DNA of 64,000 nt from Actinomycetota bacterium (GCA_046734755.1 JBKPRY010000369.1:1529-65528); one strand, 5' to 3'. Positions 21,662 through 62,904 are shown, numbered from the stretch's first letter. Numbers and translations: made by a program. The notes: a model not told the origin generated them from the sequence alone.

Positions 21662-22789
21662 TCAGCGTCGGGCGCGCTCGGCCTCGCGAAGATAGAGCGC
21701 GTGCTGCGTCCGGACCTCCTCGCGCGATGCGAGCAGGGCGTCCTCGACGCCGGGGGAGAGTGACCGCGACTCGATCAGCGCGTTGAGCTTCGTCGGGTCG
21801 ACCGAGAGCACGTGTTCCCACAGGCCGAGCGGCTCGAGGATCTCGCGCACCTCCTCCTCGACCGGGGCCGTCACGTGCTGCGCGCGGCGGTCGATCGCCG
21901 CGCCGTCGGAGCCGAACAGGCGCCGGTATCCGTGCTCGTCAGCGAATGCGTTGATCAGCGGTACCAGCTCATCGAACCGCCGGTACGCCGCGCGGGTCTC
22001 GCGCTTCAGCCTGATCCATTCGTCCACCATCTCGGTCACGCGCGGGGTCGGGTCGCCCTGCTCCTTCTCGTATCGGTGGCGGAACAACGGGCACAGGGCC
22101 TGGTACTCGCACCAGTCGCAGAGCGGGTTCTGCCGCGCCTCGAACTTCCCGGCCTCGATCCGCTCGGCGACCACCGCGATCCGCCGGCGGAGCTCGTCGA
22201 CGTCGGCGGGCGTTCGGACCGTCGTCATCCGTTGGCCGGGGAGCAGGTAGTACAGCGTGAGGCGCTCGGGCTCGATGCCCCAGATCTGCCGCGCGGCCAT
22301 GTGGTAGATCGAGAGTTGAAGATCCTGATCGATCCGCGACTGCGGCGGCAGTCGCCGGTTGGTCTTGTAGTCGACGATCTCGTACCCGCCGCCGGGGATC
22401 CGGTCCATCCGGTCGATCACGCCGGACAGCGCGACGCCTTCGACCTCGATCGTGAAACGGAACTCGAGCGCGGCGGGGATCCGGTACGCGTCGGCGTTCT
22501 CGCGGTGGTACAGCGACAGGACCTGCCGACCGTGGTCGCGGTAGGTCTGCTCCTCCGACGCGTCGCCGAATCCCTCGGAGACCCAGGACGCCTCGAGCAT
22601 GTCGTGGAGCTCGCCGATCGAGGGCGGGACCGGCACCGGCCGGTTGTGGAACAGGTACAGGGCTCGGTGGAGCGAGTCGCCGAACGAGAGCGCCGCGGAA
22701 CGCGCCTGCGGCACGCGGTCCTCGTACTGGAACTTGAACTTGGCGGGGCAGGTTTCATAGGTGTTGATGCTCGAATACGAGAGCCGCAT
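21662..22789 (-). CDS. Cas4/AddB-like PD-(D/E)XK nuclease with a 4-Cys cluster (stand-alone RecB-family exonuclease)
   Basis: Start re-picked at MRLSYSSINTYETCP (ATG 22789-22787, SD GGAGGG). Nuclease core GVIDRMDR...YEIVDYKT and a QLSIYHMAA motif. Cys pattern C(14)...CDWCEYQALC (C-x2-C-x5-C). Confidence 0.75.
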   Translation of the reverse strand: MRLSYSSINTYETCPAKFKFQYEDRVPQARSAALSFGDSLHRALYLFHNRPVPVPPSIGELHDMLEASWVSEGFGDASEEQTYRDHGRQVLSLYHRENADAYRIPAALEFRFTIEVEGVALSGVIDRMDRIPGGGYEIVDYKTNRRLPPQSRIDQDLQLSIYHMAARQIWGIEPERLTLYYLLPGQRMTTVRTPADVDELRRRIAVVAERIEAGKFEARQNPLCDWCEYQALCPLFRHRYEKEQGDPTPRVTEMVDEWIRLKRETRAAYRRFDELVPLINAFADEHGYRRLFGSDGAAIDRRAQHVTAPVEEEVREILEPLGLWEHVLSVDPTKLNALIESRSLSPGVEDALLASREEVRTQHALYLREAERARR

Positions 22790-22906
22790 CTGCCCTCCGA
22801 GGCCTGTTACGTAGCGCCCGAGTCTACGACCACGGAACCGGCAATTACAAGCGTGTAGTTCTCCACACGAGATCCCCACCCAAGCGGCCCTGGGAAACGA
22901 TGTGGA

Positions 22907-25900
22907 TTGCCGTGGGATAAGTTACATGGTTGTAAGCCGCCGCCCGATCCGTTCTATACTCGGCGGGCTTTGGCCGGTCGGGACTCCTTCGTTCACCTCC
23001 ACGTGCACTCCGAGTTCTCCCTGCTGGACGGTGCCGCCCGGATCAAGGCGCTGTTCGAGCGGGCCGTCGAGTTCCGGATGCCGGCGCTGGCGCTCACCGA
23101 CCACGGAGCGATGTTCGGGGCCTTGCAGTTCTACGAGGCGGGGGTGGCGGCAGGGGTCAAGCCGATCCTCGGCGTGGAGACCTACGTGGCACCGAGCTCC
23201 CGGTTCGAGCGGGCGCCGGGTGAGAGCGAAGAGAAATATCGCCACCTCACGATCCTTGCCCGCAACGAGATCGGGTACCGCAACCTCCTCAAGCTGGTCA
23301 CGGACGCGCATCTCGAGGGCTTCTACCACCGGCCCCGCGTGGACAAGGAGCTCCTGGCCGAGCATGGCGAGGGACTCATCGGGCTCTCGGGGTGCCTCGC
23401 GTCCGAGGTCTCGCAGCTCCTCCTCGGGGGTCAGCCCGCCAAGGCGGACGAGGTGGCCGCGACGTACGCCGACATCTTCGGGGCCGGGAACTTCTTCATC
23501 GAGCTGCAGGATCACGGCCTCTCCGAGCAGCGGGAGATCCTCCCCAAACTGGTCGAGCTCGCGAGCCGCACCGGCCTGCCGCTCGTGGCCACGAACGACC
23601 TGCACTACACGCAGCGCGAGGACGCGAAGCCCCACGACGTCCTGCTCTGTATCCAGCAGCAGAAGCTGCAGTCGGACACGAACCGGCTGCGCTTCGACTC
23701 CGCCGAGTTCTACCTGAAGACCGCCGAGGAGATGCGCGAGGTCTTCCGCGAGCTGCCCGCGGCCTGCGACGCGACGCTGCAGATCGCCGAGATGTGCGAG
23801 CTGAAGCTCGTCTACGGGGGCTCGGCGCCGCCCGAGGAACGCTTCCACGTCCCGCGGTTCGAGCCACCGGAGGGCAAGGACCGCGATGCCTACCTGCACG
23901 AGCTCGTGATGCAGGGCGCGCGGGAGCGGTACGGGACGCTGACACCTCCCATCCTCGAACGCATCGAGCAGGAGCTCGGCGTGATCACGTCGATGGGCTT
24001 CTCCGGCTACTTCCTGATCGTGTGGGACCTGATCCGGTTCGCGCGCGAGAACGGCATCCGCGTCGGACCCGGACGTGGCTCGGCGGCCGGCTCGGTGGTC
24101 TCGTACTCGCTGCGGATCACCGATCTCGATCCGCTGCGGTACGACCTGATCTTCGAGCGATTCCTGAACCCCGGGCGGATCCAGATGCCCGACATCGACA
24201 TGGACTTCGACGAGCGCCGGCGCGACGAGGTGATCCGGTACGTGGCCTCGAAGTACGGATCCGATCGTGTGGCGCAGATCATCACGTTCCAGACGATCAA
24301 GGGGAAGCAGGGGATCCGCGACGCCGCGCGCGTCCTCGGGTTCCCCGCGAGCGTCGGCGACCGCCTCTGCAAGATGTACCCGGCGGCGATCATGGGGCGC
24401 GACGAGCCGATCGAGAAGGCGCTCCGGCTCTCGCACGAGCTCCGTGACGCCTACGAGCGGGAGCCCGAGGCCCGCGAGATCGTTGACACGGCGCGGGCGC
24501 TCGAGGGCCTTCGGCGCGAGGACTCCGTCCACGCGGCCGGGGTGGTGATCGGCGATGCACCGCTCGTGGCCTACCTGCCGCTCAAGCTCTCCAAAGATTC
24601 CCGCGACGACTCCCGCCGGATCGTCACGCAGTTCGACATGCACGGCGTGGAGGAGCTCGGCTTGCTCAAGATGGATTTCCTCGGTCTGCGGACGCTGTCG
24701 GTGATCGAGGACACCCTCTCGCACCTGCGGCGCAGGGACGTCGAGCTCGACATCGACCACGTGCCGCTCGACGACGCCGACACCTACGCGATGCTGTGCC
24801 GGGCGGACACGACCGGCGTCTTCCAGCTCGAGGGCGGCGGGATGCGCTCGCTGATCAAACAACTCGCCCCCGACCGGTTCGAGGACCTGATGGCGCTGGT
24901 GGCGCTGTACCGGCCGGGGCCGCTCAGCGCGGGGATGCACGTCGAGTACGCCGAACGCAAGCACGGGCGCCGCCCGGTGTCGTACCCGCACACGGATCTC
25001 GCGGAGATTCTCGCTCCGACGTACGGGATCATGGTGTACCAGGAGCAGGTGATGCAGATCGCGGTGCGGATGGCGGGGTACTCGATGCCCGAGGCCGACA
25101 TGCTCCGGCAGGCGATGGGCAAGAAGATCCGCGCCAAGCTGATGGTCCACCGCGAGAAGTTCATCCAGGGCTGCGTCGACAACGGCTATCCGGACCGGCT
25201 CGGCACGGACCTGTTCGACCTGATGGAGCCGTTCGCCGACTACGGGTTCAACGCCTCGCACGCGTGCGCGTACGGGTACATCGCGTACCAGACGGCGTAC
25301 CTCAAGGCGCATTACCCCGTCGAGTACATGGCGGCGATTCTGACGAGCGTCCGCGACGACAAGGACCGCAAGCCCTTCTACCTGAACGCGTGCCGCCTCA
25401 TGGGCCTCGAGGTCCTGCCTCCGGACGTGAACGAATCGGAACAGGACTTCGCGCCGGTGACGAGTGGCGAGCCCAGGATCCGATACGGGCTCTCCGCCGT
25501 TCGCAACGTGGGTTCGGGCGCGGTGCAGCAGATCATCGAGGCTCGTCGCGCGAAGGGTTCGTTCACCGGCTACGCGGACTACTGCCGCAAGGTGGATCCC
25601 TCGGTCCTGACGAAGAAGGTGCTCGAGAGCCTGATCTACGCGGGTGCGTTCGACTCGTTCGGGTACCGGCGCCGCGGGCTCGTCGAGAACCAGGACAAGA
25701 TCTCGACCCCGATCTCGGCCGAGCGCAAGGCCGAGGCCGCGGGACAGTTCTCGCTGTTCGGGGGTGGCGAGCAGGCGGCGAACGAGATCGACGAGGGTGT
25801 GATCACGTCCGACGAGTACGACCGGCGGACCCTCCTCCGTTTGGAGAAGGAGGTGCTCGGCCAGTTCGTGACCGACCACCCACTCCTGGGCGTGAAGGAG

Positions 25901-26527
25901 CGGCTGGCCGCGCTCGCCGACATGGAAATCGCCGAGACCGAGGGCCTGGGCGACGGCGATCTCGTCACGGTCGCGGGGATCGTCGCCTCGGTCTCGCGCC
26001 GCTACACGAAGAAGGGGGAGCCCTACGCGCAGTTCCGCCTCGAGGACCTGGCCGGCGGCGTCACGGTGGTCGTGTTCCCCGGCCAGTACGAGAGCCTGCA
26101 GCACCTGCTCGAGCACGACTCGATCCTGCTGGTGAAGGGTCGCGCCGACCGCCGGGGTCGCGGCGAGGAGCTGCAGCTTCGCGCCGTCGAGGTCTCCGAA
26201 CCCGATCTGGGTGACGGCGGGCGGCCGGCCCCTCCGAGCGGCCGCCTCGTGATCGACCTTACCGCGCAGAGCTGCACCGGCACGGTGATCGCGACGCTCA
26301 AGGAGCTGCTCGCGGCGCACAAGGGCTCGTCGCCGGTCCAGGTGCGCTTCCATTCCTCTGCGGGCGTGCGCCCGTTCGACGTCGGCACGTTCCGCGTGGA
26401 ACCCGGCGCCGGGCTGCTCTCCGAGCTGCGGGTCCTGCTCGGCACCGAGGCCGTTCGTCTGGCGTCGCTCGAAGCGGACGACGTGGTCGCCCTGCCGACG
26501 TCCAGCGTCCCCGCGCCCATCGGGTAG
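22907..26527 (+). CDS. dnaE: DNA polymerase III alpha subunit (start uncertain: TTG 22907 or TTG 22970)
   Basis: PHP domain FVHLHVHSEFSLLDGA and polymerase core (PDIDMDF, GLLKMDFLGLRTL). Length is ~1185-1206 aa. Confidence 0.95.
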   Translation: MPWDKLHGCKPPPDPFYTRRALAGRDSFVHLHVHSEFSLLDGAARIKALFERAVEFRMPALALTDHGAMFGALQFYEAGVAAGVKPILGVETYVAPSSRFERAPGESEEKYRHLTILARNEIGYRNLLKLVTDAHLEGFYHRPRVDKELLAEHGEGLIGLSGCLASEVSQLLLGGQPAKADEVAATYADIFGAGNFFIELQDHGLSEQREILPKLVELASRTGLPLVATNDLHYTQREDAKPHDVLLCIQQQKLQSDTNRLRFDSAEFYLKTAEEMREVFRELPAACDATLQIAEMCELKLVYGGSAPPEERFHVPRFEPPEGKDRDAYLHELVMQGARERYGTLTPPILERIEQELGVITSMGFSGYFLIVWDLIRFARENGIRVGPGRGSAAGSVVSYSLRITDLDPLRYDLIFERFLNPGRIQMPDIDMDFDERRRDEVIRYVASKYGSDRVAQIITFQTIKGKQGIRDAARVLGFPASVGDRLCKMYPAAIMGRDEPIEKALRLSHELRDAYEREPEAREIVDTARALEGLRREDSVHAAGVVIGDAPLVAYLPLKLSKDSRDDSRRIVTQFDMHGVEELGLLKMDFLGLRTLSVIEDTLSHLRRRDVELDIDHVPLDDADTYAMLCRADTTGVFQLEGGGMRSLIKQLAPDRFEDLMALVALYRPGPLSAGMHVEYAERKHGRRPVSYPHTDLAEILAPTYGIMVYQEQVMQIAVRMAGYSMPEADMLRQAMGKKIRAKLMVHREKFIQGCVDNGYPDRLGTDLFDLMEPFADYGFNASHACAYGYIAYQTAYLKAHYPVEYMAAILTSVRDDKDRKPFYLNACRLMGLEVLPPDVNESEQDFAPVTSGEPRIRYGLSAVRNVGSGAVQQIIEARRAKGSFTGYADYCRKVDPSVLTKKVLESLIYAGAFDSFGYRRRGLVENQDKISTPISAERKAEAAGQFSLFGGGEQAANEIDEGVITSDEYDRRTLLRLEKEVLGQFVTDHPLLGVKERLAALADMEIAETEGLGDGDLVTVAGIVASVSRRYTKKGEPYAQFRLEDLAGGVTVVVFPGQYESLQHLLEHDSILLVKGRADRRGRGEELQLRAVEVSEPDLGDGGRPAPPSGRLVIDLTAQSCTGTVIATLKELLAAHKGSSPVQVRFHSSAGVRPFDVGTFRVEPGAGLLSELRVLLGTEAVRLASLEADDVVALPTSSVPAPIG
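22930..22960 (+). promoter_or_regulatory. Candidate dnaE promoter (TTGTAA-N19-TATACT)
   Basis: TATACT at 22955-22960 is a near-consensus -10 box in a 70% GC background. TTGTAA at 22930-22935. An in-frame TTG at 22970 lies 9 nt downstream. Confidence 0.35.
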
Positions 26528-57572: not shown

Positions 57573-58166
57573 TCAGCGGGCCGCCGGGGTGATCGGCTCG
57601 CGGCCGGTCAGCAGCTCATAGAGGCCGGCGAGGGTCCGAACGTCGACGGTCTCGGGAAGCAGCGGCGCGATCTCTCCCTCGCCGACGCCCCAGGTGATGA
57701 CTTCTGCGGCCTGCTCGGTGCCTCGGTCCTTCCAGTCGTCACTCGGGTCGTTCCAGTGGGCGATCCCGCGGATGTCCATGAACCGGTTGAGGATGGCGCT
57801 CTCGATGTGGGCCTCGGTCCAGGCGTGGGCCATCTCGTGGAGCGCGAACTTCCGCTGGTACGGCTCGCTCGAGCTCGTGGTGCACAGGTCGATACGACCC
57901 GCGTGGTAGAGCCCGATGCCCTCGTTGCACGCCTCGTGCGAGCGGTGGAGGTACACGTCCAGGGACGGCATGTCCTCGAGGCCTGCCAGGCGGTAGCGGT
58001 GCAGCGCCCAGTCGACCGCCTGCTCCTCGGCGGCGTTGGCCCCGTGGATCGTGAGGGGGCGGGCGTCCGCAGGGGCGGGGCGCTGGTTCCCGAGGGTGGC
58101 CGTCGCGAAGGCCAGGCACAGGATGAGGGCGATCCGGCTGCTCCGGGTGCGGGTGGCGGTGTCCAT
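57573..58166 (-). CDS. Small secreted protein with a metzincin-spaced zinc motif (HEMAHAWTEAH)
   Basis: Signal-peptide-like N-terminus (RIALILCLAFATATLG). HExxHxxxxxH spacing is identical to HExxHxxGxxH. Two Cys residues. I recognise no family. Confidence 0.55.
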   Translation of the reverse strand: MDTATRTRSSRIALILCLAFATATLGNQRPAPADARPLTIHGANAAEEQAVDWALHRYRLAGLEDMPSLDVYLHRSHEACNEGIGLYHAGRIDLCTTSSSEPYQRKFALHEMAHAWTEAHIESAILNRFMDIRGIAHWNDPSDDWKDRGTEQAAEVITWGVGEGEIAPLLPETVDVRTLAGLYELLTGREPITPAAR

Positions 58167-58300
58167 GACCGCACCCTCGACCCGTGCCTTCGCAGCTCGG
58201 CCGCAACCCGGTCGCAGTTCGCTGGAACGTGACGCAGGTCACCCGGGCGGATGCGTGGATGCATGGCGTTCCCGGGGTGCCCGTCGTACGGTTCGCGGCG

Positions 58301-61300
58301 ATGGAATTCCGGATCCTGGGACCGCTGCAGGTGTTCGATGACTCCCGGCCGCTCGCGCTGGGGGGGCCGAAGCAGCGCGCGGTGCTCGCGCACCTGATCC
58401 TGCGCGCCAACCACACCGTGGGCGCCGAGCAACTCGTCGACGGCCTGTGGGGGGACGAGCCGCCCGAGACCGCCCGGAACACCCTGCAGACCTACGTGTA
58501 CCGCCTCCGCAAGGTCCTCGGCGAGGAGCGGCTCGGGCGGCGCGACGGCGGGTACGTCCTCACGGCGGCACCCGAAGAGGTCGATGCCGCGAGGTTCGAG
58601 GCGATCGTGAGGGACGCCAAGCGGCTGTCGGCGTCCGACCCGGCCGCGGCGGCCACGAGGTTCGGTGACGCGCTCGCCCTATGGCGCGGTGCGCCGCTCG
58701 ACGACCTGGGCCAGGAGCCGTCGTTGCGAGGCGAGATCGCCCGGCTGGAGGAGCTTCATCTGTCGGCCACGGAGCACCGGATCGGCGCCGAGATCGCGAG
58801 CGGACGCAACTCGACCGTGGTCTCCGAGCTCGAGGCCCTCACGGCCCGCTACCCGCTCCGGGAACGGATGTGGGCCAACCTGATGCTCGCGCTCTACCGG
58901 GGTGGTCGCCAGGCCGAGGCCCTGTCCACCTACCAGCGGGCCCGCGACGTCCTGATCGAGGAGCTCGGCACCGAACCCTCGACCGAGCTGCAACGTCTGC
59001 ACCAGCGGATCCTCGAACGCGATCCGTCGCTCGGCCGCACCGAGCGTGTTCGTCCGGTCGTTCGACCCAGCCGCGTGGACCTCCCGCCCGGGACCGAGTT
59101 CGCCGGCTACCGGATCGAGCGAACCCTCGGGCGCGGCGGCATGAGCGTCGTGTACCTGGCCGAGCACGACTGGCTCCAGCGCAGGGTGGCGCTCAAGGTC
59201 CTCGCACCACAGCTCGCCGAGGACGAGCGTTTCCGCGAGCGGTTCGTCCGAGAGTCCCGGCTCGCCGCGTCCCTCGACCACCCGAACGTGATCCCGATCT
59301 ACGAGGCCGGCGCGTCGGGCGGAGACCTGTTCATCGCGATGCGCTATGTGGAGGGGACCGATCTCCGCACGCTCCTGCACGAGGGCGGTGCGCTCCCACC
59401 CGCGAGGACCATCTCCATCGTTCTGCAGGTCGCGGCGGCACTCGACGCCGCGCACGAACAGGGGCTGGTGCATCGGGACGTCAAGCCGGGCAACGTGCTG
59501 CTCGCGCGCCAGCGGAGTTCGGAAGCGGAGGAGCACGTGTATCTCTCCGACTTCGGGCTCACGAAGCGCTCGGCGAGCGACTCGGGGATCACCGGGACGG
59601 GCCAGTTCGTGGGGACGCTCGACTACGCGGCCCCGGAACAGTTCAAAGGCGGCACCCCAGACGCGCGGACCGACGTCTACTCGCTCGGATGCGTCCTGTT
59701 CGAGTGCCTCACGGGCCGGACGCCCTTCACGTCCGAGAACGACGCCGGTCTGATGTACGCGCACCTGCAGGAGGGGCCGCCCTCGGTCACGGCCCAGCAG
59801 CCGGGGCTGCCGCGCGAGATCGACCGGGTCGTTGCGAGGGCGATGGCCAAGGCACCCACCGATCGTCAGCAGACGGCGGGCATACTGGCGGACGAGGCCT
59901 CCCTCGCGCTCCGGATCACGAGTGGAGTGGCCGCGGGCGCGCCCGACCGGTCACGTCTGCGCCGGCTCATCCCGGCGATCGCGGTGGCGATCGCGCTCCT
60001 GGCTGGGATCGTGCTGGCGTCGGTCTTCCGGAGTGAGCCGGAGCGAGCCCGGGACGGATCGCCTTCGTCACCGCCTGCGGTGGCGAGCCCGACGCCGTCG
60101 CCCACCTTCCGGACGGATGAGCGCCCCCTGAGAGGTGATGAGCCTCGCCTCCTCACGTACATCCCACAGGGGATCTCGGAGGATTGCCTCCCGCTGGATC
60201 GTACCGAGCCGATCCAGGGCGAGTTGGCGTCTCTGGTGTGCCGCACGGAGGACGTGGAGGTCCTGTACGAGCTCTTCCCGACTCGAGAGCTGATGGACGC
60301 CGCGTTCCAAGGCGGCGTCAACAGCCGGGTTGCGCCCGACGGCGAATGCGCTACGGACCGGCTCGCCGTCACGCCCTACACGGTCGGCGGGGTGCGGGTC
60401 GGGCGGGTCCTCTGCTACACGATCAAGCACGCGCCATCCGATTCCGTTGGGGTGGAGCATCTGCCGGAGCAGTCGCACATCGAATGGACGGACGAGAACG
60501 CCCTCATCTACGCGCACGCGCTGAGGAACGACTTGGGAGACCTCACCCTCTACGACTGGTGGCTGACCTCCGCCGGCCCGGTCGTGCCGGGGACGGAGGG
60601 CGAGAGCGTGACCGAGAAGGATCGTCCCGCCACGGCGGCCGGGCCATCTCCGCGGGACGGGACGTACTTGGTCCTTCCCCCCAAGGGGTGTGCGGGGGTC
60701 CCCGGCGCTACGTGTTCGCTCCAGATCGAGGCAGGGAGCTATCGGTTCGTGTTCACGGGCGACGCCAGCGCCGCGGAAGCGGGACGGATCCTCATCGAAA
60801 AGCCGGACACCGTCGTGTTCGCCCCTCGAACCGGGCATTGCATGCAAGGGGTAGAGAGTGGGACGTTGCGGTCGACGGATCCGGCGGGATACACATGGTC
60901 CGCGCATGGAGGAACGGTCTCCTTCGAATGGACGAGGGGCGGACATTGCGCCGGGCCGCAGAAGCTGACGAGCGAACCGTGGACCCGCGTCCCCGAGGGG
61001 GTCATCGCCGTCGGGGTCGCCTACGACATCGGCCTCATGAACGCGGGCGGGATCCTTCAACAGAAGTTCTTCATGCCGCAGACGCGTCCCAACATATTCC
61101 CGGACTGGTCCCCCGATGGTTCGCTGATCGCCTTCACGGGAGGGAGCGAGGCCGGGTTCGATGTCTACGTAATGAGCGGCGACGGCACCGATGTCACACT
61201 CCTTACCGGTACCTCGGGAGACGAGTATCAGCCCGCGTGGTCTCCAGACGGATCGCGCATCGTGTTCGCGTTCGACGATCTGGGCGATCCCGACTTCCGC

Positions 61301-61801
61301 TCCGGCGTTGCGATCATGAACAGTGACGGCTCGGCTCGGACGGATCTGGTCGTCCGGGAGAACGAGCGCGTGGAATCGCCGATGTGGTCCCCGGACGGAA
61401 CCCACATCGCGTTCACTGGTTTCAGCCAGGACGGGATCCGGCCGAACGCGTACGTGATGGACGCGGACGGAACCGAGGTCGTCAAGCTCAGTGGGGGACC
61501 GACTGTGGTGCTCGCCTGGACGCCCGACGGCAGTCAGCTCCTCGTCTCGCGGGGAGGCTCGCTGCTCACCGTCGATCCCGACGGCACGCACGAGCGAGTG
61601 TTTCTGGCGGATCCCCCGGAGGACGGCAGGCTCGAGGTCGACTGGTCACCCGATGGACGATGGTTGGTGATGTCCGCGGCCAATCCGAGCGGACATGCGA
61701 GCGGCCATTACGATGCGATGTACCTCACGCGAGTCGGGGGTGGTCAGGTCTTCTTCCTCGGCTCCGGGTCCGAGCCGGATTGGCAACCGGTGGCTCCATG
61801 A
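58301..61801 (+). CDS. Fusion protein: SARP-type winged-helix + BTAD, Hanks Ser/Thr kinase, TM helix, two Cys-containing ectodomain modules, PD40/TolB-like beta-propeller
   Basis: ATG 58301 lies inside ORF 58184..61801. aa 1-240: FRILGPLQV...TLQTYVYRLRKVLG plus BTAD (ALWRGAPL..., YPLRERMWANLMLALYRGGRQAEAL). aa 268-525: GRGGMSVVY, VALKV, HRDVKPGNVLL, DFGLTK, APEQF. aa 556-576: TM helix. aa 930-1160: five repeats of the WSPDG type. Confidence 0.85.
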   Translation: MEFRILGPLQVFDDSRPLALGGPKQRAVLAHLILRANHTVGAEQLVDGLWGDEPPETARNTLQTYVYRLRKVLGEERLGRRDGGYVLTAAPEEVDAARFEAIVRDAKRLSASDPAAAATRFGDALALWRGAPLDDLGQEPSLRGEIARLEELHLSATEHRIGAEIASGRNSTVVSELEALTARYPLRERMWANLMLALYRGGRQAEALSTYQRARDVLIEELGTEPSTELQRLHQRILERDPSLGRTERVRPVVRPSRVDLPPGTEFAGYRIERTLGRGGMSVVYLAEHDWLQRRVALKVLAPQLAEDERFRERFVRESRLAASLDHPNVIPIYEAGASGGDLFIAMRYVEGTDLRTLLHEGGALPPARTISIVLQVAAALDAAHEQGLVHRDVKPGNVLLARQRSSEAEEHVYLSDFGLTKRSASDSGITGTGQFVGTLDYAAPEQFKGGTPDARTDVYSLGCVLFECLTGRTPFTSENDAGLMYAHLQEGPPSVTAQQPGLPREIDRVVARAMAKAPTDRQQTAGILADEASLALRITSGVAAGAPDRSRLRRLIPAIAVAIALLAGIVLASVFRSEPERARDGSPSSPPAVASPTPSPTFRTDERPLRGDEPRLLTYIPQGISEDCLPLDRTEPIQGELASLVCRTEDVEVLYELFPTRELMDAAFQGGVNSRVAPDGECATDRLAVTPYTVGGVRVGRVLCYTIKHAPSDSVGVEHLPEQSHIEWTDENALIYAHALRNDLGDLTLYDWWLTSAGPVVPGTEGESVTEKDRPATAAGPSPRDGTYLVLPPKGCAGVPGATCSLQIEAGSYRFVFTGDASAAEAGRILIEKPDTVVFAPRTGHCMQGVESGTLRSTDPAGYTWSAHGGTVSFEWTRGGHCAGPQKLTSEPWTRVPEGVIAVGVAYDIGLMNAGGILQQKFFMPQTRPNIFPDWSPDGSLIAFTGGSEAGFDVYVMSGDGTDVTLLTGTSGDEYQPAWSPDGSRIVFAFDDLGDPDFRSGVAIMNSDGSARTDLVVRENERVESPMWSPDGTHIAFTGFSQDGIRPNAYVMDADGTEVVKLSGGPTVVLAWTPDGSQLLVSRGGSLLTVDPDGTHERVFLADPPEDGRLEVDWSPDGRWLVMSAANPSGHASGHYDAMYLTRVGGGQVFFLGSGSEPDWQPVAP

Positions 61802-62904
61802 GCGATGGTCCCGCAACCGCCGAACACCCTGAGGGTCTGTCCACGTCACTCGAGGTGAGCCTCGAGGAGCTCCAGCTGTCACAACGCAATCACGGGATGC
61901 AGCTCGAGGGGCTCCGGTACGACATAACCCCGGCGGGGATGCACTATCTCCTGATCCACTTCGACGTGCCCGATGGTGACGAGGCGACCTGGACGCTCTC
62001 GGTCGGCGGGCTGGTGCGTCACCCGCTCAAGCTGTCCGTGACCGAGCTCATGAACCGCCCGAGCGTCACGATGCCCGTGACGATGGAGTGCGCAGGCAAC
62101 GGCCGCGCGCGACTCGCGCCTCGTCCGATCTCGCAGCCGTGGCTCACCGAGGCCATCGGCACGGCAGCCTGGACCGGCACGCCGCTGCGGGGCCTCCTCG
62201 AGGAGGCCGGCATCGGGGACGAGGCCGTCGAGCTCGTGTTCCGCGGGGCCGATCACGGGACCCAGGGCGACGTCGAACAGGACTACGAGCGCAGCCTCTC
62301 GATCGAGGACGCCATGCGGGAGGAGGTCCTGCTCGCGTACGAGATGAACGGCGCGCCGCTGCCGCCGCAGCACGGGTTCCCGCTCCGCCTCGTCGTGCCC
62401 GGCTGGTACGGCATGACGAGCGTGAAGTGGCTGACCTCGATCACGGCGGTGGCCGAGCCGTTCGAGGGCTACCAGCAGGTCGCCTACCGCTTCCGGCAGC
62501 GGCCTGAGGACGAGGGCGAGCCGGTCACGCGCATGAGCCCGCGTTCCCTCCTCGTCCCGCCCGGGTTCCCCGACTTCATGACCCGACGTCGCTTCGTCGA
62601 CGTCGGCGACCACGTCCTCCGCGGCCGCGCCTGGTCGGGATGGGGTCCGATCGAGCGCGTCGAGGTCAGCACGGACGGCGGCGACACCTGGGAGGACGCC
62701 GCCCTCGGCGAACCCGCGTCGCCGTTCGCGTGGACGCCGTTCGACTTCGCGTGGAAGGCAACCCAGCCGGGGGAGTTCGAGCTCTGTTGCCGGGCCACGG
62801 ATGCCGAAGGCAACACGCAGCCGCTCGACCAACCCTGGAACCTCCACGGGTTCTCGAACAACATGGTCCAGCGCGTCCCCGTGGAGGTTCGGGCGCCCGC
62901 CTAG
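61798..62904 (+). CDS. Sulfite-oxidase-family molybdopterin oxidoreductase (no signal or TAT motif seen)
   Basis: ATG 61798 forms an ATGA overlap with the kinase-fusion stop. Mo-ligand cysteine motif TMECAGNGRA, GFPLRLVVPGWYGMTSVKWL, and a C-terminal Mo-co dimerisation-like domain. Confidence 0.85.
   Translation: MSDGPATAEHPEGLSTSLEVSLEELQLSQRNHGMQLEGLRYDITPAGMHYLLIHFDVPDGDEATWTLSVGGLVRHPLKLSVTELMNRPSVTMPVTMECAGNGRARLAPRPISQPWLTEAIGTAAWTGTPLRGLLEEAGIGDEAVELVFRGADHGTQGDVEQDYERSLSIEDAMREEVLLAYEMNGAPLPPQHGFPLRLVVPGWYGMTSVKWLTSITAVAEPFEGYQQVAYRFRQRPEDEGEPVTRMSPRSLLVPPGFPDFMTRRRFVDVGDHVLRGRAWSGWGPIERVEVSTDGGDTWEDAALGEPASPFAWTPFDFAWKATQPGEFELCCRATDAEGNTQPLDQPWNLHGFSNNMVQRVPVEVRAPA

What the first reader, a model, noticed from the sequence alone, without database searches (positions are those of the whole stretch)
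58301..61801. Single polypeptide combining a SARP/BTAD transcription factor, an active-looking Hanks kinase, a TM helix and a TolB-like propeller (an 'EmbR + PknH in one chain', ToxR-like topology)
The N-terminal ~240 aa are a classical SARP (OmpR-type winged helix plus BTAD). They are followed directly by a kinase with all catalytic motifs intact (G-loop, VALK, HRD, DFG, APE). Then come one TM segment and ~590 extracytoplasmic residues ending in five WSPDG-type PD40 repeats. In the known paradigms these functions sit on separate proteins: M. tuberculosis PknH phosphorylating the SARP EmbR, and Streptomyces AfsK/AfsR. Here the DNA-binding domain would be permanently tethered to the membrane, as in ToxR/CadC, and cis-linked to its presumptive kinase. 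This implies either membrane-proximal transcription control or release by proteolysis. I am not aware of a characterised example of this architecture.
Basis: partly seen in the sequence, partly recalled or inferred. Interest (0 to 1): 0.72.

Follow-up and report, generated by a model that had tools for sequence, protein, structure and literature searches.

The report
Receptor kinase fused to SARP activator
One gene really does encode a membrane-spanning sensor, an intact Ser/Thr kinase and a SARP-type DNA-binding activator in one chain; it belongs to a large, uncharacterised family from uncultured soil Actinomycetota, and its probable target promoter lies next door.

Summary
Window 58301-61801 (+) is one 1166-aa ORF: OmpR-type winged helix + BTAD (SARP), Hanks kinase, one TM helix (aa 556-576), then about 590 extracytoplasmic residues ending in five W[ST]PDG PD40 blades.

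It is not an assembly artefact. More than 100 protein clusters from independent metagenomes and MAGs share the full architecture down to 44% identity. All kinase catalytic residues are invariant in 101 sequences, and the equivalents of AfsR's DNA-contact residues are conserved.

The architecture is not rare. SARP+kinase is a reusable cassette joined to other sensors, including soluble Bmp-type forms with no TM. There are several paralogs per genome, and the ectodomain diverges fast.

New here: the divergent neighbour, a small secreted HExxH protein, has a leaderless-type promoter preceded by four 11-bp-phased direct repeats. The last repeat lies 8 bp from the -10. That is SARP-operator geometry, and it is conserved wherever the two genes are paired.

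Best reading: a single-chain receptor kinase/transcription activator acting from the membrane on the adjacent promoter. I found no published characterisation. A 2023 survey of transmembrane regulators only counts the Pkinase, BTAD and PD40 domains separately. Verdict: a new variant of known kinds, of moderate to high interest.

The parts
58301..61801 (+). SARP-kinase receptor gene (1166 aa + stop)
   Evidence: ORF; Pfam; 100% identical protein P0001 and >100 full-length homolog clusters.
58301..58570 (+). OmpR-type winged-helix DNA-binding domain (aa 1-90)
   Evidence: Trans_reg_C, E 2.9e-10. Aligns to AfsR residues 26-111. Equivalents of AfsR DNA contacts: W50, P55 and R70 in 101/101 homologs, T64 in 92/101, R68 in 97/101 (contact list from PMC10936776).
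58580..59014 (+). BTAD (bacterial transcriptional activation domain, aa 94-238)
   Evidence: PF03704, E 4.5e-46, full-length match 1-146/146. AfsR 8hvr E 6.1e-47 and EmbR 2fez E 8.5e-42.
59108..59872 (+). Hanks-type Ser/Thr kinase domain (aa 270-524)
   Evidence: Pkinase, E 1.4e-46. Closest solved structures are PknE 2h34 (E 1.5e-64) and PknB. K299, E318, HRD, N398, DFG and APE are 101/101; activation-loop T431 is 101/101 and T433 is 98/101.
59966..60028 (+). Single transmembrane helix (aa 556-576)
   Evidence: Kyte-Doolittle maximum 2.63. It is the only segment above 1.7. RSRLRR lies on its N-terminal side.
60137..60577 (+). Ectodomain 1: conserved four-Cys alpha/beta domain (aa ~613-759)
   Evidence: No Pfam or PDB sequence match. 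AF2 model m381e40c9c84e, pLDDT 82.5. Only weak fold hits, to PsbP and to mycobacterial TiME 7cu9. Invariant Cys residues in alignment A3.
60659..60988 (+). Ectodomain 2: variable beta-barrel-like domain (aa ~787-896)
   Evidence: All-beta in the AF2 model. Weak hits to the C-terminal barrels of D-aminopeptidase 1ei5 and SurE. Least conserved part of the protein (0.52 mean column identity; 0.57 nt identity to syntenic genes).
61013..61798 (+). PD40 / Tricorn-type beta-propeller (aa ~905-1166), five W[ST]PDG blades
   Evidence: PD40, E 3.6e-21. Precomputed Tricorn_N and Tricorn_2nd hits on homologs. TolB model scores only 86 bits against a cut-off of 343.
58287..58292 (+). TACGGT, -10-like hexamer 8 nt before the ATG; no Shine-Dalgarno, so a probable leaderless mRNA
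   Evidence: A TA(C/G)(G/C)GT-type hexamer lies 7-9 nt before ATGGAGTTC in nearly all paralogs, whatever their context. The promoter assignment is inference.
58187..58227 (-). Four 11-bp-phased direct repeats (TTCCAGCG / TGCGACCG / TGCGGCCG / TGCGAAGG on the - strand): candidate SARP operator
   Evidence: Read. Lag-11 self-match is 19/33 (p~0.007 against shuffles), and lag 11 is the best of lags 6-17 in 10 of 12 loci. CGCTGGAA is invariant in 9 syntenic loci and also present in L065. The repeats are absent where the HExxH gene is absent. Unique in the window.
58173..58178 (-). GAGGGT, -10-like hexamer of the HExxH gene; 6 nt from its ATG and 8 nt from the last repeat
   Evidence: The A and T of the hexamer are invariant in 9 loci. 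The geometry matches the published SARP rule: 3' repeat 8 bp from the -10, repeats 11 or 22 bp apart (PMC10936776).
58229..58242 (.). Conserved palindrome GTGAC-N4-GTCAC next to the distal repeat
   Evidence: Both arms are kept in the aligned loci while the 4-nt centre varies. Function unknown.
57573..58166 (-). Divergent gene for a 197-aa secreted HExxH (zincin-like) protein; candidate target or partner
   Evidence: No Pfam or PDB sequence hit. 310 homologs, all annotated 'hypothetical'. HEMAH and two Cys are invariant. AF2 pLDDT 78.7, with weak zincin fold hits to M1 peptidase, YbeY, Wss1 and astacin. Next to a SARP-kinase gene in 10 loci.
61798..62904 (+). Sulfite-oxidase-like molybdoenzyme gene, start overlapping the SARP-kinase stop (ATGA)
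   Evidence: Sequence. Oxidored_molyb E 2.9e-59 and Mo-co_dimer. Directly downstream in L001, L004, L005, L007, L017 and L018, but not in L002 or L065.

Best explanation
The gene encodes a single-pass receptor Ser/Thr kinase whose cytoplasmic N-terminus carries a complete SARP transcription activator. Sensor, transducer and output are therefore in one polypeptide.

**Shown**
- All four modules are intact and under purifying selection across more than 100 homologs.
- The chain has one TM helix. The SARP and kinase are on the cytoplasmic side. A Cys-containing, fast-evolving ectodomain ending in a PD40 propeller is outside.

**Inferred mechanism**
1. An unknown extracellular ligand, possibly a peptide or a cell-envelope fragment, binds the ectodomain.
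2. Binding drives receptor dimerisation and trans-autophosphorylation of the activation loop (T431/T433), as in PknB- and PknD-type receptor kinases.
3. This places two SARP modules side by side. SARPs are monomers that dimerise on DNA, one protomer per 11-bp direct repeat. Cis/trans phosphorylation may also tune them.
4. The SARP pair then binds the 11-bp-phased direct repeats at 58187-58227 and recruits RNA polymerase to the divergent, leaderless promoter of the secreted HExxH zincin-like gene.
5. The protein stays in the membrane. The operator is about 100 bp from its own start codon. Co-transcriptional membrane insertion of the receptor and secretion of the neighbour's product would hold that DNA at the membrane, as proposed for ToxR/CadC-type regulators.

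The receptor gene itself appears to be leaderless and translationally coupled to a sulfite-oxidase-like gene.
For: - **Domains and topology:**
- **The fusion is real and conserved:**
- **Catalytic and activation-loop residues are invariant, and the equivalents of AfsR's DNA-contact residues are conserved:**, with the contact list from PMC10936776.
- **End-to-end alignment with the AfsR and EmbR SARP domains:**
- **SARPs dimerise on 11-bp direct repeats, with the 3' repeat 8 bp from the -10:** PMC10936776.
- **That geometry is found upstream of the HExxH gene:**
- **The repeats are kept in a 52%-identical ortholog (L065).** They are missing in paralogs and orthologs that lack the HExxH neighbour.
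- **The HExxH gene is paired with a SARP-kinase gene in 10 loci.** By matching contig lengths, it is probably paired on at least 11 more metagenome contigs.
- **The recognition helix differs where the repeat sequence differs.** YVYRLRK goes with CGCTGGAA-type boxes. YVSHLRK goes with CTTCAAGC-type boxes.
- **The ectodomain diverges much faster than the cytoplasmic part and the flanks,** as expected for a ligand-facing receptor surface.
Against: - There is no experiment of any kind. The organism is uncultured.
- 11-bp direct repeats are used by the whole OmpR/PhoB superfamily (PhoP, GlnR, MtrA), so another regulator could own this operator.
- The repeat statistics are modest (p about 0.007 in one 134-bp region), and the syntenic loci are related, so they are not independent samples.
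- The promoter hexamers are inferred by eye. The sigma-70 consensus scan found nothing.
- In AfsR, the phosphorylation sites used by AfsK lie mostly outside the SARP domain and barely change activation (PMC10936776). EmbR needs an FHA domain, which is absent here. Kinase-to-SARP phosphocontrol therefore has weak precedent.
- The linker (aa 241-269) and the juxtamembrane segment have no strongly conserved Ser/Thr.
- Soluble SARP-kinase-Bmp paralogs show that the cassette does not need a membrane.
- The ligand is unknown, and both ecto-domains lack confident structural relatives.
Confidence: 0.5

Rival explanations
1. Release by regulated proteolysis. The membrane form is a latent precursor. Signal-dependent cleavage in or near the TM helix or the juxtamembrane linker frees a soluble SARP or SARP-kinase fragment that activates transcription anywhere in the genome. 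The neighbouring secreted HExxH protein could even act as the site-1 protease on the ectodomain.
For: - The juxtamembrane segment (aa 531-555) and the Pro/Ser-rich segment after the TM helix are poorly conserved and look flexible.
- Soluble SARP-kinase paralogs exist, so the cassette works without a membrane.
- A zincin-like secreted protein is encoded next door and co-occurs with the receptor.
Against: - No site-2 protease or other intramembrane protease gene lies in the conserved neighbourhood.
- No conserved cleavage motif is evident.
- An operator-like site right next to the gene fits local action from the membrane at least as well.
Confidence: 0.15
2. The protein is a kinase first. The SARP module does not act as a promoter-specific activator here. 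It serves instead as an autoregulatory or scaffold domain (BTAD is TPR-like), or as a DNA-sensing activator of the kinase, as with the DNA-binding motif of B. subtilis YabT. The real output would then be phosphorylation of other proteins.
For: - The kinase is the best-conserved module.
- YabT is a transmembrane Hanks kinase activated by DNA binding (PMC3708118 abstract).
- In sister architectures the SARP-kinase pair is followed by STAND NTPases, which are typical signalling hubs.
Against: - The wHTH is conserved as strongly as the kinase (0.81 mean column identity for both).
- Conserved positions include the equivalents of the base-contacting T88 and R92 of AfsR.
- A site with SARP geometry sits beside the gene and co-varies in presence with the neighbouring gene.
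Confidence: 0.15
3. The architecture is right but the target is wrong. The direct repeats upstream of the HExxH gene are bound by a different OmpR-family regulator, and the SARP-kinase controls distant genes.
For: - 11-bp-phased direct repeats are generic for OmpR/PhoB-family binding (established knowledge; the AfsR site is shared with PhoP, PMC10972967).
- Several paralogs with the same recognition helix (L006, L063) have no such repeats nearby.
- A conserved palindrome beside the repeats suggests that another, dimeric regulator also binds here.
Against: - The repeats, the HExxH gene and a SARP-kinase gene travel together in 10 loci, down to 52% protein identity.
- The repeat-to-(-10) spacing of 8 bp is the SARP-specific rule.
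Confidence: 0.18
4. The fusion is an artefact of a frameshift or a chimeric assembly that joins separate SARP, kinase and propeller genes.
For: None was found. Some long-read MAG copies show frame breaks, but these split genes rather than fuse them.
Against: - The same uninterrupted architecture and length occur in more than 100 clusters from independent short- and long-read assemblies across four sources and in many MAGs.
- Coding-type codon-position GC over the reading frame (GC3 0.85, GC2 0.51), the same signal seen in the neighbouring genes.
Confidence: 0.01

Closest known systems
AfsK/AfsR (Streptomyces) and PknH/EmbR (M. tuberculosis): Hanks kinase plus a separate SARP substrate
   Same: The same two protein families are functionally linked. 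The SARP module here aligns over its whole length with AfsR (E 6e-47) and EmbR (E 8.5e-42). The kinase is of the actinobacterial PknB/PknE type. PknH is likewise a single-pass receptor kinase.
   Different: Here the two are one chain, with the SARP N-terminal to the kinase. There is no FHA domain (EmbR), no NB-ARC/TPR (AfsR), no PQQ repeats (AfsK) and no PknH_C sensor. The gene is not in a biosynthetic cluster and is not next to arabinosyltransferase genes. It lies in a core chromosomal region.
ToxR/CadC/TcpP-type transmembrane transcription regulators (TTRs)
   Same: An N-terminal cytoplasmic OmpR-type winged helix, one TM helix and a C-terminal extracytoplasmic sensor. The candidate target lies next to the regulator gene. 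TTRs containing BTAD (213), PD40 (321) and Pkinase (27) domains are counted separately in a 2023 survey (PMC10269533, supplementary file 5).
   Different: A full BTAD and a catalytically intact Hanks kinase are inserted between the DNA-binding domain and the membrane. The survey does not discuss these classes. Sister proteins with the same cytoplasmic cassette are soluble.
Bacteroides hybrid two-component systems (HTCS)
   Same: Conceptually the closest analogue: a periplasmic sensor, a TM segment, a kinase and a DNA-binding output fused in one chain. They form expanded paralog families with diversified sensor domains (PMC10269533).
   Different: The chemistry and the families differ. HTCS use a histidine kinase, a receiver and AraC-type HTH. 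This protein uses a Ser/Thr kinase and a SARP. The domain order is reversed, with the DNA-binding domain at the N-terminus.
Large SARPs (AfsR, PolY, SARP-LAL such as PimR)
   Same: An N-terminal SARP domain followed by a C-terminal regulatory module that gates it (PMC10936776, PMC10972967).
   Different: The regulatory module is a receptor kinase with an ectodomain rather than a cytoplasmic STAND ATPase/TPR. Intermediate forms (SARP-kinase-nSTAND1-...) exist in related MAGs.
YabT (B. subtilis)
   Same: A transmembrane Hanks kinase that binds DNA (PMC3708118 abstract).
   Different: YabT has a short DNA-binding motif that activates the kinase. It has no wHTH/BTAD transcription module and no ectodomain.

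Membership tests
SARP (Streptomyces antibiotic regulatory protein) family | N-terminal OmpR-type winged-helix DNA-binding domain | tested here: met
   Trans_reg_C E 2.9e-10. Aligned to the AfsR ODB domain. W50, P55, T64, R68, R70 and K71 match the AfsR DNA contacts.
SARP (Streptomyces antibiotic regulatory protein) family | BTAD immediately following the DNA-binding domain | tested here: met
   PF03704, E 4.5e-46, covering 146/146 model positions.
SARP (Streptomyces antibiotic regulatory protein) family | Binds direct repeats spaced 11/22 bp, with the 3' repeat 8 bp from the -10, and activates transcription | tested here: inconclusive
   A site with this geometry lies 100 bp upstream, at the divergent promoter. 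Binding and activation cannot be tested with these tools.
Hanks-type (eukaryotic-like) Ser/Thr protein kinases | Catalytic core motifs: G-loop, VAIK Lys, alphaC Glu, HRD, catalytic Asn, DFG, APE | tested here: met
   All are present and 101/101 conserved, except the third G-loop glycine, which is Ser. Pkinase E 1.4e-46. PknE and PknB are the top solved matches.
Hanks-type (eukaryotic-like) Ser/Thr protein kinases | Autophosphorylation on activation-loop Thr | not testable with these tools
   T431 and T433 are conserved at the positions of the PknB activation-loop threonines. Activity is unmeasured.
Transmembrane transcription regulators (ToxR/CadC-like one-component systems) | DNA-binding domain and at least one TM helix in the same polypeptide, with the DNA-binding domain cytoplasmic | tested here: met
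   One TM helix at aa 556-576. The N-terminal 555 aa have no signal peptide. The ectodomain has conserved Cys residues. The topology is predicted, not measured.
Transmembrane transcription regulators (ToxR/CadC-like one-component systems) | Regulates transcription while membrane-bound | not testable with these tools
   Only circumstantial: the candidate operator is adjacent to the gene.
PknH/EmbR system | FHA domain on the SARP that docks onto the phosphorylated kinase | tested here: not met
   No FHA match in the Pfam or NCBIfam scans.
PknH/EmbR system | PknH-type extracellular sensor domain | tested here: not met
   No PknH_C or other Pfam hit on aa 576-900. The fold search gave only weak PsbP/TiME-like hits.
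AfsR-type large SARP | NB-ARC/NOD ATPase plus TPR C-terminal to the SARP | tested here: not met
   The AfsR equivalog model matches only positions 30-277 (215 bits against a cut-off of 1430). No NB-ARC or TPR hits.
TolB (Tol-Pal system) | TolB N-terminal domain plus six-bladed PD40 propeller, scoring above the equivalog cut-off | tested here: not met
   TIGR02800 scores 86 bits against a cut-off of 343. Only propeller blades match. The propeller is PD40/Tricorn-type.

The most novel reading that the evidence does not exclude
These proteins are a bacterial counterpart of eukaryotic receptor-kinase repertoires with the transcription factor built in. A family of several paralogs per genome has rapidly diversifying ectodomains. 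In each member, ligand-induced dimerisation of a Hanks receptor kinase directly assembles a SARP dimer on a neighbouring promoter. That would be a complete transmembrane signalling pathway, from sensing through phospho-switching to RNA polymerase recruitment, executed by one membrane-bound polypeptide on DNA held at the membrane. The secreted HExxH zincin would be the dedicated output, and possibly a feedback protease acting on the ectodomain.
Probability: 0.25. Interest if true: 0.78.

Novelty: new variant of a known kind. Interest (0 to 1): 0.58.

Why it matters
How Ser/Thr phosphorylation controls SARP activators is still unclear. AfsK barely changes AfsR output in vitro, and EmbR needs an FHA adaptor.

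A natural fusion of an intact receptor kinase to a SARP is 'Rosetta-stone' evidence that the two act together. It offers a minimal, self-contained system of one protein, one candidate operator and one candidate target gene. That system could test whether the control is by phosphorylation, by dimerisation or by both.

It would also extend transmembrane transcription regulators to Ser/Thr-kinase-gated ones.

Finally, it points to a large, fast-evolving and entirely uncharacterised sensor family in abundant uncultured soil Actinomycetota. The SARPs in this family are not tied to antibiotic gene clusters.

Tried and rejected
- **Paralogs inside the window:** none (tblastn).
- **Sigma-70 promoter and terminator consensus scan:** nothing found. 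This is uninformative for a 70% GC actinomycete.
- **Sequence searches of the PDB with the HExxH family and ectodomain profiles:** no hits.
- **Pfam on the HExxH protein and on aa 576-900:** no hits.
- **Fold searches of both AF2 models:** only weak matches. I do not assign either ecto-domain to a known fold. I call the neighbour 'zincin-like' only on the strength of the invariant HExxH plus weak metallopeptidase hits.
- **Possible kinase-then-SARP fusions:** I first took the two-stretch hits for these. Pfam showed they are tandem kinases (P0254, P0306) or tandem SARPs (P0296, P0342), so that idea was dropped.
- **ECF-sigma promoter (GGAAC...CGTC) around the CGCTGGAA box:** considered, but the spacing does not fit.
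- **A conserved 'CTTCC' -35-like element upstream of the paralogs' TACGGT:** its spacing varies from 13 to 19 nt, so I do not claim it.
- **Other copies of the repeat or the palindrome in the 64-kb window:** none.
- **Six full-text literature searches:** no paper on this fusion. The comma-separated architecture strings in the TTR survey supplements could not be searched.

Full report
**1. What is in the sequence**

Window 58184..61801 (+) is one uninterrupted ORF. The biologically supported start is the ATG at 58301 (MEFRILGPL...), which gives 1166 aa. That N-terminus is shared by every paralog examined. The DNA upstream of it is conserved as non-coding sequence, not as protein.

Pfam finds these domains:

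| Domain | Residues | E-value |
|---|---|---|
| Trans_reg_C | 22-76 | 2.9e-10 |
| BTAD | 94-238 | 4.5e-46 |
| Pkinase | 270-524 | 1.4e-46 |
| PD40 repeats | C-terminal region | 3.6e-21 |

NCBIfam agrees: a PknB-type kinase, the N-terminal SARP part of AfsR, and TolB-propeller blades only, far below the TolB cut-off. A Kyte-Doolittle scan gives a single TM candidate at aa 556-576 (2.63), and nothing else exceeds 1.7. Five W[ST]PDG blades are visible in the translation.

**2. It is real and conserved**

A search of 5.8 billion proteins returned the identical protein and more than 100 clusters with the same domain set. Their lengths are 1149-1218 aa and identity goes down to 44%. They come from JGI, ENA, NCBI and Logan assemblies. 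The only names given are automatic ones, such as 'BTAD domain-containing putative transcriptional regulator [Actinomycetota bacterium]'.

In GTDB species genomes, the relatives are all soil MAGs of uncultured Actinomycetes or Actinomycetota.

In an alignment of 101 full-length members:
- K299, E318, H391-R392-D393, N398, D417-F-G and A444-P-E are invariant.
- The activation-loop threonines are conserved: T431 in 101/101 and T433 in 98/101.

The SARP part aligns end-to-end with the solved SARP domains of AfsR (8hvr/8k60, E 6e-47) and EmbR (2fez, E 8.5e-42). Of the AfsR residues that contact DNA (PMC10936776), the equivalents W50, P55 and R70 are invariant. The two base-contacting residues are kept as T64 (92/101) and R68 (97/101). 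Both enzymatic and DNA-binding functions are thus under purifying selection. A frameshift or misassembly is excluded for practical purposes.

**3. The cassette is modular and the family is large**

Related MAG loci carry the same SARP+kinase N-terminal module (70-80% identical over aa 1-537) joined to other C-termini:
- A Bmp/PnrA-type binding domain with no TM helix at all (L006, L010, L012; maximum hydropathy 1.7 or less).
- TM + DUF6923-like repeats + SBP_bac_5 (L016).
- nSTAND1 NTPase + TM + SBP_bac_1 (L019).
- A degenerate kinase (HGN, DFP) + nSTAND1 + TM + WD40 (L021, L022, L027).

In the library clustered at 50% identity, at least 39 of the best 150 representatives match aa 1 to about 530 in one stretch. 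Their lengths run from 481 to 2056 aa. Five that I checked are Trans_reg_C+BTAD+Pkinase.

Single MAGs hold at least three paralogs, sometimes two in tandem at this very locus. The fusion is therefore common in this lineage, and membrane anchoring is a subfamily trait.

**4. Genomic setting**

The window is core chromosome: FtsW, FtsZ, IleRS, DnaE, PolA, RpsA and UvrB. There is no biosynthetic cluster.

The local order is uvrB, amidohydrolase, HExxH gene (-), SARP-kinase, sulfite-oxidase-like gene, aminotransferase (-). This order is syntenic in several MAGs.

Nucleotide identity to three syntenic loci:

| Region | Nucleotide identity |
|---|---|
| uvrB | 0.86-0.95 |
| Aminotransferase | 0.85-0.93 |
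| SARP and kinase parts | 0.73-0.88 |
| TM helix to the end of the propeller | 0.56-0.68 |

The protein comparisons are mosaic. For example, against L018, aa 254-371 are 94% identical while aa 372-710 are 59%. The receptor's outside face is thus the fastest-evolving part of the neighbourhood.

The receptor's stop codon overlaps the start of the molybdoenzyme gene (ATGA).

**5. A candidate operator and target**

The 134-bp divergent intergenic region reads on the minus strand:

TTCCAGCG-aac-TGCGACCG-ggt-TGCGGCCG-agc-TGCGAAGG - 8 nt - GAGGGT - 6 nt - ATG (HExxH gene).

That is four direct repeats with an 11-bp period. The last repeat lies 8 bp from a -10-like hexamer, and that hexamer sits at the distance expected for a leaderless transcript. 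The published rule for SARP sites is exactly 'direct repeats 11 or 22 bp apart, the 3' repeat 8 bp from the -10' (PMC10936776).

Evidence for the site:
- Lag-11 self-similarity is 19/33 in the window (p about 0.007 against shuffles).
- Lag 11 is the best of lags 6-17 in 10 of 12 loci.
- CGCTGGAA and the A and T of the hexamer are invariant in nine syntenic loci.
- L001 and L002 carry two perfect copies, CGCTGGAA-n3-CGCTGGAA.
- A 52%-identical ortholog (L065) keeps the whole arrangement.
- Paralogs and orthologs without the HExxH neighbour lack the repeats.
- Loci with a different box (CTTCAAGC) have a different recognition helix, YVSHLRK instead of YVYRLRK. This is anecdotal, but it points in the right direction.

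The neighbour is a 197-aa protein with a signal-peptide-like N-terminus, an invariant HEMAH and two invariant Cys. It has no Pfam or PDB sequence relatives, 310 'hypothetical' homologs, and a confident AF2 core with only weak zincin-type fold matches.

The receptor gene itself has a conserved TACGGT 8 nt before its ATG and no Shine-Dalgarno sequence. This feature is shared by paralogs in unrelated contexts, which suggests a leaderless mRNA.

**6. The ectodomain**

An AF2 model of aa 600-905 (pLDDT 82.5) shows two parts:
- A conserved four-Cys alpha/beta domain, followed by
- A variable all-beta domain.

Neither has a confident match in the PDB. The best hits are the C-terminal barrels of D-aminopeptidase and SurE, and PsbP/TiME-like folds, all with low TM-scores. 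The ligand is unknown. PD40/Tricorn-type propellers often handle peptides, but that is only a lead.

**7. Mechanism**

*Shown:* the modules, their order, the topology prediction, their conservation, and the neighbouring repeat array.

*Inferred:*
- Ligand-driven dimerisation and activation-loop autophosphorylation, by analogy with PknB- and PknD-type receptor kinases (established knowledge).
- Side-by-side SARP dimer formation on the repeats. SARP is monomeric in solution and dimerises on DNA.
- Activation of the HExxH promoter from the membrane, with the operator kept nearby by co-transcriptional insertion.

The weak point is kinase-to-SARP phosphocontrol. AfsK sites lie mostly outside the SARP domain and barely affect AfsR activation. 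EmbR uses an FHA domain that is absent here. I therefore regard dimerisation as at least as likely a coupling mechanism as cis-phosphorylation.

Rivals are proteolytic release, a kinase-centred role for the SARP module, and ownership of the repeats by another OmpR-family regulator. They are listed with their tests.

**8. Comparison with the known, and novelty**

The protein works like a cross between three things:
- A ToxR/CadC-type transmembrane regulator.
- A PknH-type receptor kinase.
- A 'large SARP' whose regulatory module is a kinase.

The nearest conceptual analogue is the Bacteroides hybrid two-component system.

It meets the definitions of SARP, Hanks kinase and transmembrane transcription regulator. 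It fails the defining features of EmbR (FHA), AfsR (NB-ARC/TPR) and TolB.

The 2024 SARP review lists no kinase-fused or membrane-bound class. A 2005 survey of prokaryotic kinase architectures mentions BTAD only as a kinase substrate. A 2023 census of transmembrane regulators counts 213 with BTAD, 321 with PD40 and 27 with Pkinase in a supplementary table, without comment.

Within the searchable library I found no functional description. That library excludes most subscription journals, so this is absence of evidence only.

I rate it a new variant of known kinds: real, abundant and uncharacterised, with a concrete and testable operator/target hypothesis.

Noticed in passing
window 59900-61800 compared with L005, L017, L018: The extracytoplasmic half of the gene is only 56-68% identical at the nucleotide level between genomes whose flanking uvrB and aminotransferase genes are 85-95% identical. 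Protein comparisons are mosaic, with 94% blocks next to 59% blocks. This suggests diversifying selection and/or recombination among paralogs.
   Followed up: partly
L003, L011 (tandem); L007, L016, L020 (one copy on each side of the HExxH gene): Some related genomes carry two SARP-kinase genes in this same slot, with different ectodomains. The slot behaves as a variable island inside a conserved core region.
   Followed up: partly
window 58229-58242; same position in L001, L002, L005, L007, L016, L017, L018, L020, L065: A conserved palindrome GTGAC-N4-GTCAC lies directly beside the distal direct repeat. Its arms are kept while the 4-nt centre varies. It could be the site of a second, dimeric regulator.
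   Followed up: no
window 58264-58292 and upstream of ATGGAGTTC in about 25 paralog loci: A TACGGT/TAGGGT/TAGCGT hexamer lies 7-9 nt before the start codon, with a 'CTTCC' motif further upstream. Both are shared by paralogs in unrelated genomic contexts, and there is no Shine-Dalgarno sequence. This points to leaderless mRNAs and perhaps a common promoter type for the whole family.
   Followed up: partly
window 61798-61801: ATGA overlap: the SARP-kinase stop codon overlaps the start codon of a sulfite-oxidase-like molybdopterin oxidoreductase. That implies translational coupling. The linkage is kept in some syntenic loci but not all.
   Followed up: partly
L021, L022, L027: Proteins of about 1700 aa with SARP + degenerate kinase (HGN for HRD, DFP for DFG) + nSTAND1 NTPase + TM + WD40 propellers: a pseudokinase branch of the same cassette. 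The reading frame upstream of the SARP start in L022 also encodes a stretch that looks by eye like an adenylate/guanylate-cyclase domain (not scanned).
   Followed up: partly
P0296, P0342, P0254, P0306: Related proteins with two tandem SARP modules, or two tandem kinase domains in one chain. P0306 is kinase-kinase-PD40 without a SARP.
   Followed up: no
L016 2528-3486: A duplicated fragment (amidohydrolase aa 1-73 followed by uvrB aa 440-669) lies between the uvrB and amidohydrolase genes. It is either a local duplication or a long-read assembly artefact.
   Followed up: no
L063 8563-10596: The gene downstream of a 47%-identical SARP-kinase ortholog is a radical-SAM protein with weak/faint precomputed hits to intein-splicing and LAGLIDADG domains, so it may contain an intein.
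   Followed up: no
window 21665-22921 (-): A PD-(D/E)XK / Cas4-like nuclease gene lies just upstream of, and divergent from, dnaE (22859-26527).
   Followed up: no
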